Virus record (IMG/VR): IMGVR_UViG_3300042139_000023
Source: a virus
Taxonomy: Duplodnaviria > Caudoviricetes
DNA: 64,000 bases
Strand: one strand, 5' to 3'
Shown: positions 51,272-55,230 of the stretch, piece by piece
Layout: the number at the start of each line of letters is the position of its first letter
Numbering within the stretch: the stretch's first letter is position 1
The notes under the pieces: generated by a model
Seen by the model: the letters and a program-made list of their open reading frames with translations, nothing else
What the model was told of the DNA's origin: nothing
Databases searched by the model: none
Program-made: the position numbers and the translations under genes

Positions 51272-51363
51272 TGGGCTGGAAGGGATTCGAACCCCTCTGC
51301 GCGGTTCCTGCATTCACTCGACACGACATCGTTGCAGGCAATCCTTTTCGGGGGCCGCAGCCC
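51272..51363 (-). ncRNA. atypical tRNA-like RNA (acceptor stem and T arm, no canonical D or anticodon arm)
   Basis: GGGCUG/CAGCCC acceptor; AGGGG-UUCGAAU-CCCUU T arm; internal CCUGCA/UGCAGG helix. Confidence 0.6.
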
Positions 51364-51496
51364 CACACCCCTGCCACGGGGACGACTGGAATTGAACCGG
51401 TCTACGCTCTCCGTTCAGCCCTTGATGGAGTTTTCATCGGCAGGACCTCCAGTCGGGTCTCTCTCCCGCTTTGGTCGGTACTCCAAACCCGCGCCG

Positions 51497-51569
51497 TGCT
51501 CCTGGCAGGATTCGAACCTGCGACATCCGGATCCGGAATCCGGTGCTCTATCCCCTGAGCTACAGAAGC
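51497..51569 (-). tRNA. tRNA-Arg(CCG)
   Basis: Full cloverleaf; loop TT-CCG-GA. Confidence 0.95.
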
Positions 51570-51580
51570 GTTTTCCGATC

Positions 51581-51976
51581 TCACCAGATGTCGTACAGCA
51601 TCCGGCGAGGAACCTTCTCGGCCTTCTCGTACAGCCGACGTTCGAGTTCACCCTTCGTTCGGCGCCCGGCCTCCAGCTTGCCCTTCACGTACCGCCGGTT
51701 GGCCCGCTCGTGCTTCTGGGCCCAGTAGGTACGGCTGGAGCTGGGTGTCCAGGCCCCGGTGTAGGTCCACCAGCGAGCGGTGCGCCTCACCTTCCGGGGC
51801 TGCGGCCTGCGGCCCTGCTCCTCGGCATCGCGGAGTTCCGCAGCGCTGTAGCGCAGGTCGTAGACCGTGTGCTCACGGACGGGGATGACGGGGCGGCCCC
51901 GCCAGTACATGCAGTACCCGTCCGGCCACTCCCGGATGTCGAACTTGCCCTTCAGGTGATGTGCCGTCTTGCCCAT
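51581..51976 (-). CDS. basic hypothetical protein within tRNA cluster
   Basis: ORF track; GGAGG RBS. Confidence 0.65.
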   Translation of the reverse strand: MGKTAHHLKGKFDIREWPDGYCMYWRGRPVIPVREHTVYDLRYSAAELRDAEEQGRRPQPRKVRRTARWWTYTGAWTPSSSRTYWAQKHERANRRYVKGKLEAGRRTKGELERRLYEKAEKVPRRMLYDIW

Positions 51977-52077
51977 CGGAATGCATCCTCCTAGGGCCGC
52001 GAGTTTCGCGGACCTAGGTGAAGCCGGTGGAGAATCCCATCATCACTCCAGACTGTTCAGGTACGGATGTTCCTGAG

Positions 52078-52175
52078 TGCGCGAGGCAGGGATCGAACCT
52101 GCACTGGACGTCTCCTCAGAGCCTTTCCGAGTGCCCTGTTCGCCGGGCTCTGACTCGGAGTACTCTTGCACGCGC
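52078..52175 (-). ncRNA. tRNA-like RNA with H-type pseudoknot replacing D and anticodon arms
   Basis: GCGCGUG/CUCGCGC acceptor; GCAGG-UUCGAUC-CCUGC T arm; UCCGAGU/ACUCGGA crossed with CAGAGCC/GGCUCUG. Confidence 0.65.
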
Positions 52176-52266
52176 GACCGCACTGCGCAATGCGGCCCTT
52201 TACCACCGACTGTAATTCCGACCGGGTTTTTCAGACCACGGAAGGACATAGTGTCGTCGGCACACG

Positions 52267-52339
52267 CTCTCCTGACTGGACTTGAACCAGTAACATCCGC
52301 ATTAACAGTGCGGCGCTCTGCCGGTTGAGCTACAGGAGA
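52267..52339 (-). tRNA. tRNA-Asn(GTT)
   Basis: Cloverleaf; CT-GTT-AA. Confidence 0.95.
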
Positions 52340-52478
52340 TCGAATCTGAAATTGTTTTCGTGGGCCTCATCCCTAGCACCACGCGGCGCACCGACCTTGT
52401 TCTGCTGCGCTTCTCAACTGTCCTGGCCGTCGGGCGGATGGCGACCAGGCAGTACTCCTATCTCCGCCACGTACTACG

Positions 52479-52550
52479 CTCCCCAGCCTGGATTTGAACC
52501 AAGAACGCCTGACCCAGAATCAGGTGTTTTGCCAGTTAAACTACCGGGGA
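52479..52550 (-). tRNA. tRNA-Gln(CTG)
   Basis: Cloverleaf; TT-CTG-GG. Confidence 0.93.
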
Positions 52551-52663
52551 TCGCTATGTAATTGTTGGCAACCGGACGGCAATGTTTCCGCTCTCGGGAT
52601 GCTTCCACTCGTATATCCTGCCCGCCACAGCAGAACCGTGTCCACATCTTACCGTCCGGCCAG

Positions 52664-52738
52664 TGGCCCCGACTGGACTCGAACCAGTGACCTCTGGGAT
52701 TTCACTCCAGCGCTCTTACACACCTGAGCTACAGGGCC
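52664..52738 (-). tRNA. tRNA-Phe(GAA)
   Basis: Cloverleaf; GT-GAA-AT. Confidence 0.9.
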
Positions 52739-52889
52739 TTGCACCCCTTGATGTATAGCTGGGCAGGGGCCGCCCTCCACTCACCTTCCGGAGAAGGTTG
52801 GCTCATGGACTCGCTTTGCCTCACTCTCTGCCCCGTGGATAGTGGTCTCGTGAACCACGAACTCCACGGGAATCCGCCTCCGAAGCCAG

Positions 52890-52967
52890 CGCACCTGACG
52901 GGATTTGAACCCGCGAAAATCTCCGCCTTGACAGGGCGGCGAGGACTCCAGACTCCTCCACAGGTGC
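52890..52967 (-). tRNA. tRNA-Asp(GTC)
   Basis: Cloverleaf; CT-GTC-AA; G73. Confidence 0.93.
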
Positions 52968-52974
52968 ATGTTTC

Positions 52975-53418
52975 TTATTCTTCTAGGCTAGACCACCATC
53001 CGAACTGAATGCCAGTCCTTTTCAGATGACAGTTCGCGCATCGAACGTCACATTTTTCGATCTCCTTCAGAACCGACTCCCATTTCATTGCATTCTTGAT
53101 CATGGTGGAAATCGGGTACAGCTTTTCCGAAGGCTCTCGATGGTCGAACTGTAAGACTCGGATGTCTGATTCACCGCAATCGACACAAGGCTTATCCTTC
53201 AGGTACTCCACGATCTTCTCGCGAAGCTCCTTCATGATTCTTTTGTTGCGTGTTCTCGCCTTGTCGACGTAAGCCTGTTTATTGTTGCTGTAGTGATTTC
53301 GAACGTACTCGCGCTGACAGTCGTGGCAGTGCTTGTACGTATACGGCTTTCCCTCCTTTACTGTCGTTCTGAACTCTGAATCAGGCTTGTCTTCATCGCA
53401 CTTGGTACAAATAGGCAT
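52975..53418 (-). CDS. HNH/His-Me endonuclease, likely homing
   Basis: CxxC..CxxC, CVDCG..FDHR..CANCH; AT-rich relative to flanks. Confidence 0.8.
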   Translation of the reverse strand: MPICTKCDEDKPDSEFRTTVKEGKPYTYKHCHDCQREYVRNHYSNNKQAYVDKARTRNKRIMKELREKIVEYLKDKPCVDCGESDIRVLQFDHREPSEKLYPISTMIKNAMKWESVLKEIEKCDVRCANCHLKRTGIQFGWWSSLEE

Positions 53419-53432
53419 TGATAGCTTTCAGG

Positions 53433-53507
53433 TCGAGGTGGCGAGATTTGAACTCGCGTCCTTCCGATCCGTAGTCGGCTGCCCCATCCGAACTGGGCCA
53501 CACCTCG
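53433..53507 (-). tRNA. tRNA-Arg(ACG) with C1:G72 Pro-like acceptor
   Basis: Cloverleaf; CT-ACG-GA. Confidence 0.9.
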
Positions 53508-53597
53508 TTCAGCCTTTCACCCTTCGCGCCAAGCGTGACCAAGGCAGGATCCAGGCCGACCACACCCAAGCCCCAGGAAGCCGTGAGGATGCGGCAG

Positions 53598-53670
53598 TAC
53601 GCCCTACTGGACTTGAACCAGTGACACGAGGATTAAGAATCCCCTGCTCTGCCAACTGAGCTAAGGGCGC
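53598..53670 (-). tRNA. tRNA-Lys(CTT)
   Basis: Cloverleaf; TT-CTT-AA. Confidence 0.95.
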
Positions 53671-53677
53671 GCGTTCT

Positions 53678-53800
53678 TCAGTTCTGCTTGTCGTCCTTGG
53701 GGCCCCAGTAGTGGCCCGTGTAGACGTGGACGGGATATCCGTCCTGCTGCACCTTCTTCAGGTGCCCTTCGTACGTCCGAGCTTTGCACTTACAGCTCAC
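53678..53800 (-). CDS. 40-aa hypothetical protein
   Basis: GTG after AAAGAAGGTG. Confidence 0.5.
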   Translation of the reverse strand: MSCKCKARTYEGHLKKVQQDGYPVHVYTGHYWGPKDDKQN

Positions 53801-53956
53801 GATCGCACCTTCTTTCTTGTCCCGATTTTCACAGGAACCCCTGGCTTCCCGGGACAGCGTTTCACCAGGGGTCTGCCTAACATCCAGCCGGGTCTGTCCT
53901 CCCGAGCCTTCCGCTGGCATACAGCTAACGGATTATGAGTCCGCGCTGCACCTTCG

Positions 53957-54030
53957 TATCCCTGACTGGACTTGAACCAGTGGCCTTTCCCTTATGAGGG
54001 GAGTGCTCTGACCAACTGAGCTACAGGGAC
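53957..54030 (-). tRNA. tRNA(CAT): elongator Met or Ile2
   Basis: Cloverleaf; CT-CAT-AA; G1 paired, so not initiator. Confidence 0.9.
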
Positions 54031-54035
54031 CTGCG

Positions 54036-54108
54036 AGCCTCCGACCGGAATTGAACCGATGGCATCCGACTTACGAAGACGGCGCTCTACCGACTGAGCT
54101 ACGGAGGC
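54036..54108 (-). tRNA. tRNA-Thr(CGT)
   Basis: Cloverleaf; TT-CGT-AA. Confidence 0.93.
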
Positions 54109-54295
54109 ATTCGGGGAAACCGCCCTGCTACTACCGACCCTCCCGCTCCGACCGGCAGACGCTTTCCCCTACGCAAGATGCCATCCTTGCACTCTTCGGC
54201 TCGCGAAACCGATGGCGCGGGAACTGCGGTTTCCTGGCGGAGTGGACGACGTCGTAAAGGAAAGAGGTACTTCCAGTACGCCGCCAGGAAACCAG

Positions 54296-54370
54296 TCGGA
54301 ATGACAGGATTTGAACCTGCGAACCTCTCCGTCCCGAACGGAGCGCTCTACCAAGCTGAGCTACATTCCG
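54296..54370 (-). tRNA. tRNA-Pro(CGG)
   Basis: Cloverleaf; C1:G72, A73. Confidence 0.95.
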
Positions 54371-54418
54371 GTAAAGGTTCCCCAGGGTGACGGGGGGATT
54401 GTAACCCCGGGGAACCAG

Positions 54419-54493
54419 CAGGGACAGCAGGATTTGAACCTGCGACACGCGGCTTTGGAGACCGCTGCTCTGGCCAAGCTGAGCTATATCCCT
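54419..54493 (-). tRNA. tRNA-Trp(CCA)
   Basis: Cloverleaf; CT-CCA-AA; G73. Confidence 0.95.
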
Positions 54494-54582
54494 TTGCCTG
54501 CCGAGAAGGTTTCCCCTCTCGGCTACAAGTACTACTCTACCGCAGAACTTCGCTATCTCATAGCGGTTTTCGGTGATGAGCC

Positions 54583-55230
54583 TCACGCACGGCGAAGGAA
54601 GGAGAACCCCGTTCCCGTGCTCGTGCAGGTCTGAAGCGCGACCGAGGCGCCGAAACCGGCCGACGGAAAGGTGCCGCCCTGACTGCCGCGCTTCGCCCAG
54701 CCGTGGCCGTACACCCGGTACGTCCCGGCCAGGCCACCCGACGTGATGACGACCTTCCGGCCCACGGGCAGGTCGTCCATCCAGGCCCAGCCCATGTAGT
54801 TGTGGCCCGCCAGCGTCTTCACCCCGGCCGGGTAGTACAGCGTCAGCTTCCCGGCGTCGATGCAGCGCTGGGCCGCCGCCACGGCCGAGCCGCAGAAGGC
54901 GTACCCACCGATCCTGGTGACCTTCTCGACCGGCTTCTTCTTCACCGGTCTCGTCGGCTTCGGCCGGGGCTTGGCGGCGGGCTTCGGTTTCACCACGGAC
55001 TTCCGCACGACGGGCGCCTTCGTCCGAACGGGCGGCGTGAAGGACGGCCTGGCTTCCGGCTTCGGCCCTTCGGTCCGGCCGAGTGGCGGAAGTTCGATGC
55101 GGATGGAGGGTACGACTGCTGCCGCCATGGCGGGTCGGCGCTCATCGGCACCAGCCGCTCCGGCGGCCGTACAGGTCGAGGCCACCAGTGCCCCAGCAGC
55201 GCCCAGCGCCAGCAGTCGTCTCCGTCTCAC
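54583..55230 (-). CDS. exported sortase-fold protein
   Basis: RRRR plus hydrophobic signal; Pro/Lys linker; LAGHN and ALQTC motifs. Confidence 0.6.
   Translation of the reverse strand: MRRRRLLALGAAGALVASTCTAAGAAGADERRPAMAAAVVPSIRIELPPLGRTEGPKPEARPSFTPPVRTKAPVVRKSVVKPKPAAKPRPKPTRPVKKKPVEKVTRIGGYAFCGSAVAAAQRCIDAGKLTLYYPAGVKTLAGHNYMGWAWMDDLPVGRKVVITSGGLAGTYRVYGHGWAKRGSQGGTFPSAGFGASVALQTCTSTGTGFSFLRRA

What the first reader, a model, noticed from the sequence alone, without database searches (positions are those of the whole stretch)
52078..52175. tRNA-shaped RNA with a pseudoknot in place of the D and anticodon arms
Seen on the - strand: 7-nt acceptor strands (one U-U mismatch), canonical T arm GCAGG-UUCGAUC-CCUGC, A73 followed by C as in the real tRNAs, and a small GGA-GACG-UCC variable-arm-like hairpin. 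The middle has two interleaved perfect 7-bp helices: UCCGAGU/ACUCGGA (52153-59 with 52126-32) and CAGAGCC/GGCUCUG (52146-52 with 52117-23), i.e. an H-type pseudoknot. It has no anticodon loop and no tmRNA tag frame. Inference: it may be processed like a tRNA and act as a decoy or mimic for anticodon nucleases, synthetases, EF-Tu or stringent-response sensors. I do not recognise the family.
Basis: partly seen in the sequence, partly recalled or inferred. Interest (0 to 1): 0.8.

Follow-up and report, generated by a model that had tools for sequence, protein, structure and literature searches.

The report
Anticodon-less tRNA look-alike in phage operon
A large soil Streptomyces phage carries, inside its tRNA operon, a conserved RNA that folds like a tRNA but cannot read codons. 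It is the back half of a longer structured RNA of unknown job, and the pseudoknot proposed for its middle is not real.

Summary
The tRNA-like features are real. On the minus strand, 52175-52078 has a 7-bp acceptor stem, a canonical T arm, A73-C74 like all 11 neighbouring tRNAs, and a small hairpin.

Thirteen distinct homologues from BM-cluster Streptomyces phages (Frankenweenie, Satis, JustBecause) and soil viral contigs keep these helices with many compensatory changes. The pseudoknot is not kept. Its second helix breaks in 6 of 8 alignable relatives, and its 3' strand covaries with a nested 4-bp helix at the D-stem position instead.

The fold is a cloverleaf-like four-way junction. It has a long, fast-evolving arm where the D loop would be, and a 3-6 bp arm capped by a nearly invariant GACG tetraloop where the anticodon arm would be.

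The element is also the 3' half of a conserved unit of about 190 nt. Three covarying hairpins with invariant loops lie upstream, and the last one abuts G1.

One soil metatranscriptome contig (188 nt, 100% identical) covers just this unit.

The downstream 131-aa gene sits next to the Ro60/Rsr gene in three other phage lineages.

Neither ARAGORN nor Rfam calls the element, and I found no paper describing it. The function is inferred only: a non-decoding tRNA mimic.

This scan has flagged similar anticodon-less tRNA look-alikes before in other phages.

The parts
52078..52175 (-). tRNA-like domain (TLD), 98 nt from G1 (52175) to A73 (52078). It is a four-way junction.
   Evidence: The covariance model R1 finds exactly one strong copy per phage genome (86-116 bits).
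52169..52175 (-). Acceptor 5' strand. It pairs with 52079-52085. G1-C72 and C2-G71 are near invariant; pairs 3-70 and 6-67 covary.
   Evidence: Variants seen: GCGCGUG/CACGCGC, GCUCGGG/CCCGAGC, GCACGGG/UCCGUGC, GCGUGUG/CGCACGC.
52118..52166 (-). Arm I, at the D-arm position. It has a 4-bp base helix (52163-66 with 52118-21), a 7-bp middle helix (52153-59 with 52126-32) and a 4-bp apical helix. Its interior differs widely between lineages.
   Evidence: Base-helix pair 12:56 occurs as GC, AU and CG.
52106..52115 (-). Arm II, at the anticodon-arm position. The stem is 3 bp here and 3-6 bp in relatives, and it covaries. The tetraloop GACG (52109-52112) is found in 13 of 14 sequences; one has GACA.
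52086..52102 (-). T arm: a 5-bp stem with three covarying pairs and the 7-nt loop UUCGAUC.
   Evidence: One lineage has the loop UGCGAUA.
52176..52265 (-). Conserved 5' domain. HP1 (52251-52265) has the invariant loop GCCGACG. HP2 (about 52217-52246) is variable. The invariant single strand GUCGGUGGUAAA lies at 52199-52210. HP3 (52176-52197) has the invariant palindromic loop UGCGCA and abuts G1 with no spacer.
   Evidence: HP1, HP2 and HP3 have 2, 6 and 6 pairs with compensatory changes. The domain starts directly after C74 of tRNA-Asn.
52266..52339 (-). tRNA-Asn(GUU), directly upstream. Its 3' processing would create the 5' end of the unit.
51990..52018 (-). Palindromic hairpin that overlaps the Shine-Dalgarno sequence of the downstream gene. 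It is invariant in all lineages, including those without the tRNA-like RNA.
51581..51976 (-). P0001, a conserved 131-aa basic protein of unknown fold. It always follows the element in BM-type phages and lies next to rsr (Ro60) in three other lineages.

Best explanation
What it is (shown). The element is a real, selected, non-decoding tRNA look-alike. It keeps the 'top half' of a tRNA: a 7-bp acceptor stem, a T arm, A73-C74, and the same 3' context as the phage's genuine tRNAs. The decoding half is rebuilt. A 4-bp helix at the D-stem position carries a hairpin of about 40 nt where the D loop would be. The anticodon-position arm is a short stem closed by a GACG tetraloop. The element forms the 3' domain of a structured RNA of about 190 nt. 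The 5' domain of that RNA (three hairpins with invariant loops) begins right after the upstream tRNA-Asn.

How it most likely works (inferred).
1. The unit is transcribed with the tRNA operon.
2. It is cut out by the tRNA-processing enzymes: 3' processing of tRNA-Asn makes its 5' end, and RNase Z-type cleavage after A73 or C74 makes its 3' end. Whether RNase P also cuts at G1 is open, because HP3 abuts G1.
3. It then acts in trans as a protein-binding tRNA mimic, not in translation.

The likeliest partners are the downstream protein P0001 and, through it, the phage's Ro60/Rsr-Y RNA system. A host tRNA-binding factor is the alternative.

My odds: about 0.9 that it is a functional tRNA-like ncRNA domain with this fold; about 0.4 for the trans-acting mimic role; about 0.2 for the link to the Ro60 module.
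For: Fold:
- On the 13-sequence alignment, 48 pairs are 94% paired and 24 of them carry compensatory changes. Controls with slid partners give 36-48%.
- Acceptor, arm II and T arm all covary.
- Independent RNAfold runs on 14 homologues give the same four-way junction.

Selection:
- There is one copy per complete phage genome, scoring 86-116 bits. Everything else scores below 33 bits.
- The flanks are only about 78% identical between lineages.

Not coding: stops, lost starts and frame-breaking indels occur across homologues.

tRNA-type ends:
- All 11 tRNAs and both look-alikes have N73-C74 followed by U or G.
- The 5' domain starts at the base after C74 of the upstream tRNA or tRNA-like gene.

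Expression hint: a soil metatranscriptome holds one 188-nt contig at depth 16.5, with no differences, spanning 52083-52270. That is the unit and nothing downstream. The only other contig of that run on the laid stretch has depth 2.9.

Module link:
- P0001 homologues are adjacent to TROVE+vWA_Ro60 genes in L019, L037 and L017/L018.
- All five complete relatives encode a TROVE protein, with weak, below-gathering-score matches to the Rfam Y-RNA family YrlA beside it in four of the five.
- Those relatives carry further closed-anticodon look-alikes near rsr.
Against: - There is no direct evidence of a discrete mature RNA, of its ends, of CCA addition or of any binding partner. The RNA evidence is one assembled contig from one sample, and DNA carry-over is not excluded.
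- HP3 pairs right up to position -1, which is unusual for an RNase P substrate. The tRNA-like domain may therefore never be released as a 98-nt species.
- With no D loop, the normal T-loop/D-loop elbow cannot form, so several tRNA-binding proteins may not recognise it.
- The tie between element and P0001 could be plain synteny within one phage cluster. P0001 occurs without the element in other lineages.
- The phage's Rsr already has its own Y RNAs next to it. Those share no motif with this unit.
- The YrlA model does not match the element.
Confidence: 0.45

Rival explanations
1. It is a cis-acting processing cassette or leader. The tRNA-like domain serves as a cutting signal, as in tRNA punctuation, plant-mitochondrial t-elements or mascRNA. 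Cleavage would separate the tRNA transcript from the P0001 mRNA and define that mRNA's 5' end. The excised piece itself would have no job.
For: - The element lies about 100 nt upstream of P0001 in every BM-type genome.
- It keeps exactly the parts that RNase P and RNase Z read, and the tRNA-like 3' context.
- Protein genes are interspersed among the tRNAs of this operon.
- Earlier follow-ups of this scan reached this reading for other Streptomyces and Mycobacterium phage tRNA mimics.
Against: - A cutting signal needs only the acceptor and T arm. Here arm II's GACG loop, the base helix and a 90-nt 5' domain with invariant loops are also under selection.
- A real tRNA (Asn) already lies 90 nt upstream and could do the punctuation.
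- P0001 keeps its own invariant leader hairpin and works without the element in other lineages.
- The metatranscriptome contig suggests that the excised unit accumulates and the mRNA does not.
Confidence: 0.25
2. It is a chargeable tRNA-like RNA. After CCA addition it is aminoacylated by a synthetase that ignores the anticodon. It then either donates the amino acid in a non-ribosomal reaction or ties up a synthetase or EF-Tu.
For: - The acceptor stem is intact, with invariant A73 and G1-C72, C2-G71.
- The T loop is canonical in most lineages.
- Precedents exist for charged tRNA-like RNAs that are not used in translation: irregular tRNA1 species and B. cereus tRNA-Other, both cited in PMC5389517.
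Against: - Pairs 3-70 and 6-67 vary freely.
- There is no G3-U70.
- There is no D arm, and no long variable arm of the Ser, Leu or Tyr type.
- One lineage has the T loop UGCGAUA.
- HP3 at position -1 may prevent 5' maturation.
Nothing in the sequence points to a particular amino acid.
Confidence: 0.1
3. One reading: the middle forms an H-type pseudoknot of two interleaved 7-bp helices, replacing the D and anticodon arms.
For: Both complementarities are perfect in the window and in contig L028.
Against: - Helix 2 is 83% paired with no covariation, and its central pair is broken in 6 of 8 sequences.
- Helix 2 has no counterpart at all in the Satis, L032, L033 and L009 lineages.
- Its 3' strand covaries with the nested base helix.
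Confidence: 0.03
4. It is a decaying tRNA pseudogene, or a short protein-coding gene (the 68-codon ORF at 52043-52249).
For: It lies in a tRNA array. An ATG-initiated ORF spans it in the window.
Against: - Compensatory changes occur in every helix across lineages.
- The ORF has stops, lost start codons and frame-breaking indels in 6 of 13 homologues.
Confidence: 0.03

Closest known systems
Bacterial and phage Y RNAs with tRNA-like modules (YrlA, Rfam RF02553; D. radiodurans Yrn1; Chen et al. 2014, PMC4201824)
   Same: - Both are non-decoding ncRNAs that copy the acceptor, T and D geometry of tRNA.
- Both occur in phages that encode Ro60/Rsr. This phage group does.
- Yrn1, like this element, has the natural (not permuted) arm order and a shortened 'anticodon' arm.
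- The gene downstream of the element is Rsr-linked in other lineages.
   Different: - The YrlA model does not match the element.
- There is no long Ro-binding stem formed by the RNA's own ends.
- The element lies about 44 kb from rsr.
- The phage's own Y RNAs share no motif with it.
- It has free tRNA-like ends with A73-C74.
tmRNA tRNA-like domain
   Same: Both have an acceptor stem plus T arm, no normal D arm, and a long helix leaving the core.
   Different: - The element has G3-C70, not G3-U70.
- It is a four-way, not a three-way, junction.
- It has no tag reading frame.
- ARAGORN finds no tmRNA, and the best Rfam tmRNA match scores 9.5 bits.
tRNA-like processing signals: plant-mitochondrial t-elements (PMC1920247) and mascRNA (RF01684)
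   Same: Each is a tRNA-shaped module without decoding ability, placed next to an mRNA end and recognised by RNase P or RNase Z.
   Different: Those need only the tRNA top half. Here extra parts are conserved (the GACG loop and the 5' domain). No cleavage data exist for this element.
Phage T4 RNAC and RNAD
   Same: They are stable small RNAs of still unknown function made by a phage (PMC9697503). From memory, they are encoded beside the T4 tRNA genes and are matured by RNase P.
   Different: I detected no sequence or structure relationship. The host and phage lineage are different.
Other closed-anticodon tRNA look-alikes in the same phage group
   Same: - They share the operon or the rsr neighbourhood.
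- They have A73-C74-type ends and a closed anticodon-position hairpin.
- The 'type 2' class-II-like form sits directly upstream of the 5' domain in four relatives.
   Different: Type 2 keeps a normal D arm and has a giant variable arm. This element replaces the D loop with a long arm and has its own 5' domain.

Membership tests
tRNA (RF00005) | 7-bp acceptor stem, and a 5-bp T stem with a 7-nt T loop | tested here: met
   One U-U mismatch here is U-A, C-G or G-C in relatives.
tRNA (RF00005) | D arm with a D loop (G18 G19), and a 7-nt anticodon loop with U33 | tested here: not met
   The D loop is replaced by a hairpin of about 40 nt. The anticodon-position arm ends in the 4-nt loop GACG.
tRNA (RF00005) | Detected by ARAGORN, or by Rfam at 29 bits or more | tested here: not met
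   No call, even at E<=10.
tmRNA | G3-U70, a tag reading frame, and detection by ARAGORN or Rfam | tested here: not met
   The element has G3-C70. ARAGORN finds no tmRNA. beta_tmRNA scores 9.5 bits against a gathering score of 84.
Y RNA / YrlA (RF02553) | Match to the YrlA model, including the Ro-binding stem formed by the 5' and 3' ends | tested here: not met
   No YrlA match on the element. An end-to-end helix of the unit has no covariation, and it breaks where HP1 covaries.
Y RNA / YrlA (RF02553) | Encoded next to rsr (Ro60) | tested here: not met
   In relatives rsr lies about 44 kb away and has its own Y RNA candidates. The only link is indirect, through P0001.
Y RNA / YrlA (RF02553) | Bound by Ro60/Rsr | not testable with these tools
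   This needs Rsr immunoprecipitation from infected cells.
tRNA-like processing signal (t-element / mascRNA type) | Cleaved by RNase P and/or RNase Z in vivo | not testable with these tools
   Only contextual evidence exists: the N73-C74 signature and the extent of the contig.

The most novel reading that the evidence does not exclude
The unit of about 190 nt (three-hairpin 5' domain plus anticodon-less tRNA-like domain) is a new class of phage ncRNA. It works with the Rsr-associated protein P0001, and possibly with the phage Ro60 particle. The tRNA-like half would recruit or imitate tRNA-handling machinery. The invariant loops (GCCGACG, UGCGCA, GACG) would be protein-contact or loop-loop contact sites. 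Its role would be phage control of host tRNA or RNA surveillance, or escape from tRNA-directed defence.
Probability: 0.2. Interest if true: 0.8.

Novelty: new variant of a known kind. Interest (0 to 1): 0.58.

Why it matters
Phage tRNA genes are now seen as weapons in the conflict over host tRNA cleavage. This element shows that phage tRNA operons also carry selected RNAs that keep the tRNA shape but have given up decoding.

It defines a clean, covariation-supported candidate RNA family that tRNA finders and Rfam miss. It is unannotated in all seven GenBank genomes that hold it.

It also ties a second unknown into the phage Ro60 story: P0001, a protein family that sits beside Ro60 genes. Cultured phages (Frankenweenie, Satis, JustBecause) and their laboratory hosts exist, so the function can be tested directly.

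Tried and rejected
- Rfam at E<=10 over 51400-54700 finds no family for the element or its 5' domain.
- Pfam and PHROGs give nothing for P0001. The AlphaFold model has mean pLDDT 71, and Foldseek against the PDB gives no match with E<=0.001. The ESM Atlas gives only unnamed clusters.
- Complex prediction of the L019 Rsr with its neighbouring P0001 homologue returned no verdict, with a score of 0.00. I do not use this either way.
- An exact scan of 185,579 prokaryote genomes for the 5'-domain pattern gave 10 hits in unrelated MAGs and none in Actinobacteria. By my own estimate that is about the number expected by chance for this pattern. I did not inspect those hits further.
- The same pattern in IMG/VR returned only the contigs already known.
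- The wastewater and other 'RNA?' runs (X18-X20, X25) matched only conserved tRNA parts or small shares, so they are not evidence.
- The promoter and terminator scan of the operon found nothing above shuffles.
- I found no shared motif between the unit and Frankenweenie's Y RNA region.
- The end-to-end pairing of the unit that RNAfold proposes has no covariation.
- The long-range pairing GUCGGUGG with CCACCGGC (the P0001 leader) is rejected. The downstream half is equally conserved in lineages that lack the 5' domain.
- The idea that the element derives from tRNA-Arg(ACG), because of ACG in the loop, is rejected. It has no similarity to the phage's tRNA-Arg(ACG), and most type-2 relatives have GAAA instead.
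- Literature searches found no description of this RNA.

Full report
**Where the window comes from.** The window is from a large lytic Streptomyces phage of the BM cluster. The 500 nt around the finding are 90% identical to phage Frankenweenie. They are about 78% identical to Satis, JustBecause, Kela, Kradal, Quantum and EhyElimayoE (cluster assignment from PMC10652959). The element lies on the minus strand inside an array of 11 tRNA genes. It sits between tRNA-Asn (52339-52266) and a 131-aa ORF, P0001 (51976-51581). It is unannotated in all seven GenBank records.

**The observation.**
- A 7-bp acceptor stem with one U-U mismatch.
- The T arm GCAGG-UUCGAUC-CCUGC.
- A73 at 52078, followed by C.
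- The hairpin GGA-GACG-UCC.
- Two interleaved 7-nt complementarities in the middle.

All 11 genuine tRNAs of the array end in N73-C74 followed by U or G, with no encoded CCA. So does a second look-alike at 51363-51272.

ARAGORN and Rfam do not call the element.

A T arm with a 6/7 acceptor turns up about 1.6 times per shuffled window. The real window has 14 T-arm motifs, and 13 of them lie in this one operon on one strand. The case for the element therefore rests on context and conservation, not on the single sequence.

**Homologues.** I anchored on the downstream protein and on conserved DNA patterns. This recovered the element from GenBank phages, IMG/VR contigs, JGI metagenomes and Logan assemblies, giving 14 distinct sequences (alignment A3). 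A covariance model built from them (R1) finds exactly one strong copy in each of five complete genomes, scoring 86-116 bits. Ordinary tRNAs and other look-alikes score below 33 bits.

**The fold.** RNAfold gives the same four-way junction for nearly every homologue, each folded on its own. The parts are, in order:
- The acceptor stem, then two nucleotides (N, A).
- A long arm I, then one or two nucleotides.
- A short arm II, then 0-3 nucleotides.
- The T arm.

Compensatory changes are plentiful:
- The acceptor occurs as four different sequences.
- Three of the five T-stem pairs switch.
- The arm II stem switches and varies from 3 to 6 bp, while its GACG loop is kept in 13 of 14 sequences.

The junction spacing (2/1/0-3 nt) matches that of a tRNA before the D stem, at position 26 and in the variable region. 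I therefore read arm I as a D stem whose loop has become a hairpin of about 40 nt. I read arm II as a closed, shortened anticodon arm. The alternative labelling (no D arm, a long anticodon arm and a variable-arm hairpin) is not excluded.

**The pseudoknot fails.** I tested it on the eight homologues whose arm I aligns without ambiguity (A6).
Its central pair (27:56) is unpaired in 6 of 8 sequences.
- Column 56 instead covaries with column 12 of a nested 4-bp helix (GC 4, AU 2, CG 2).
- The two pairings compete for the same strand.
- In the more distant lineages arm I is rebuilt altogether, and helix 2 has no counterpart.

The perfect second helix is a peculiarity of this strain and of one near-identical contig.

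**The element is half of a larger RNA.** The 90 nt between tRNA-Asn and G1 are at least as conserved as the element. They fold into three hairpins that covary:
- HP1 has a stem that changes GUGU/ACAC to GUAG/CUAC and an invariant loop GCCGACG.
- HP2 is variable in sequence.
- HP3 has 8-9 bp, six pairs with compensatory changes and an invariant palindromic loop UGCGCA.

An invariant single-stranded 12-mer, GUCGGUGGUAAA, lies between HP2 and HP3.

Over the whole unit, 48 pairs are 94% paired and 24 carry compensatory changes. With partners slid by 1-3 columns, only 36-48% are paired.

The HP1 loop could pair with GUCGGU to form a pseudoknot. Both sides are invariant, so this cannot be tested here.

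HP3 ends at position -1, directly against G1. That is unusual for an RNase P substrate and leaves open whether the tRNA-like half is ever released.

No reading frame is conserved over the unit. RNAfold proposes an end-to-end helix for the full unit, but it has no covariation and breaks where HP1 covaries.

**Expression.** Sixteen soil and rhizosphere DNA runs hold half or more of the sampled words of the 901-nt stretch around it. One soil metatranscriptome (run X17) holds a single 188-nt contig at depth 16.5, with no differences, spanning 52083-52270. That is the unit from the tRNA-Asn junction to five bases short of A73. Nothing from that run covers the spacer or P0001 downstream. The only other contig of that run on the laid stretch has depth 2.9. 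This fits a stable processed RNA of about 190 nt. It remains one assembled contig from one sample: contigs do not show true ends, and DNA carry-over is not excluded.

**Context.** P0001 is a conserved basic protein (38 clusters, all 131 aa). It has no Pfam or PHROG match and no structural neighbour. Its leader carries an invariant palindromic hairpin that overlaps the ribosome-binding site. That hairpin is kept even where the tRNA-like RNA is absent.

In three lineages outside the BM type, the P0001 homologue lies next to the Ro60/Rsr gene (TROVE plus Ro60 vWA domains):
- L019 has the order Y RNAs, then P0001, then rsr.
- L037 has rsr, then P0001.
- L017 and L018 have rsr, two tiny ORFs, then P0001.

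All five complete BM-type genomes encode a TROVE protein about 44 kb from the tRNA operon, which is outside this window. Four of the five have weak, below-gathering-score matches to the Rfam Y-RNA family YrlA beside it. Further closed-anticodon look-alikes lie upstream.

In four relatives a second look-alike ('type 2') sits directly between tRNA-Asn and the 5' domain. It has a class-II D arm, a GAAA- or CACGA-capped hairpin at the anticodon position and a variable arm of about 50 nt. In one lineage it replaces the present element upstream of P0001.

These phages therefore carry a suite of non-decoding tRNA mimics. Their members are found in either of two neighbourhoods, the tRNA operon and the rsr locus, depending on the lineage.

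**Mechanism.**

*Shown:* the fold, the selection on it, the tRNA-type ends, the larger unit and the genomic associations.

*Inferred:* the unit is cut out of the operon transcript by tRNA-processing enzymes and acts in trans as a tRNA mimic that binds protein. P0001 and the Ro60 system are the best-placed candidate partners.

The main rival is a purely cis-acting cutting signal for the P0001 mRNA. It does not explain selection on the GACG loop or on the 5' domain, nor the presence of a real tRNA just upstream.

Aminoacylation cannot be judged from sequence.

**Comparison and novelty.** The element works like known tRNA mimics: Y RNAs of the YrlA and Yrn1 kind, the tmRNA tRNA-like domain, and t-elements or mascRNA. 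It fails the defining tests of each family (see the membership table). I found no published description. Earlier notes of this scan report the neighbouring look-alikes in this genome and similar anticodon-less tRNA mimics in other phages. The general class has therefore been seen repeatedly in this scan, though apparently not in the literature. I rate this element a new variant of a known kind.

Noticed in passing
window 52975-53418 (-): An HNH endonuclease ORF (147 aa; phrog_2255, E 2e-35) is inserted between tRNA-Arg(ACG) and tRNA-Asp. Frankenweenie has no gene annotated there, so this looks like a mobile homing-type insertion in the tRNA operon.
   Followed up: partly
window 51272-51363 (-): A second unannotated tRNA look-alike lies downstream of tRNA-Arg(CCG). 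It has the acceptor GGGCUG/CAGCCC, the T loop UUCGAAU, A73-C74, no D stem and one long helix, so it resembles a tmRNA tRNA-like domain. It overlaps the start of an ORF that is annotated in Frankenweenie.
   Followed up: partly
window 51990-52018 (-), and all P0001 loci: A palindromic hairpin (CCUAGG-N-CCGCG, a 5-nt centre, then CGCGG-N-CCUAGG) overlaps the ribosome-binding site of P0001. It is almost invariant across all lineages, which suggests an operator or an autoregulatory site.
   Followed up: partly
L019 2501-4514; L037 3-1414; L017 2-1338: The P0001 family (131 aa, no known domain) is adjacent to Ro60/Rsr genes in three phage lineages, in different gene orders. It is a candidate new Rsr-associated protein.
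   Followed up: partly
L020 2089-2211; L029 66-188; L032 1094-1216; L033 278-400; L013 2773-2890: These are 'type 2' class-II-like tRNA look-alikes of 118-123 nt, with a closed anticodon-position hairpin and a variable arm of about 50 nt. The Rfam tRNA model scores 39 bits on L013, but ARAGORN misses it. The type is absent from this locus in the window.
   Followed up: partly
JustBecause MH744418 122809-122897; Satis MH576962 125692-125783: Further unannotated tRNA-like matches to model R1 (32 and 24 bits) lie in the gap between tRNA-Arg and tRNA-Asp of relatives.
   Followed up: no
Frankenweenie OQ921725 92530-92620 and 94959-95044: A 91-nt 'tRNA-Pro(tgg)' is annotated beside the Ro-like gene, in the region that gives YrlA-like matches. 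It is probably the tRNA-like module of a Y RNA. An 86-nt 'tRNA-Undet(ac)' is a Glu-like look-alike with a closed anticodon arm.
   Followed up: partly
L019 889-1917: An ATP-grasp gene (ATPgrasp_Ter, E 5e-33) lies just upstream of the Y RNA trio, P0001 and rsr in a distant relative.
   Followed up: no
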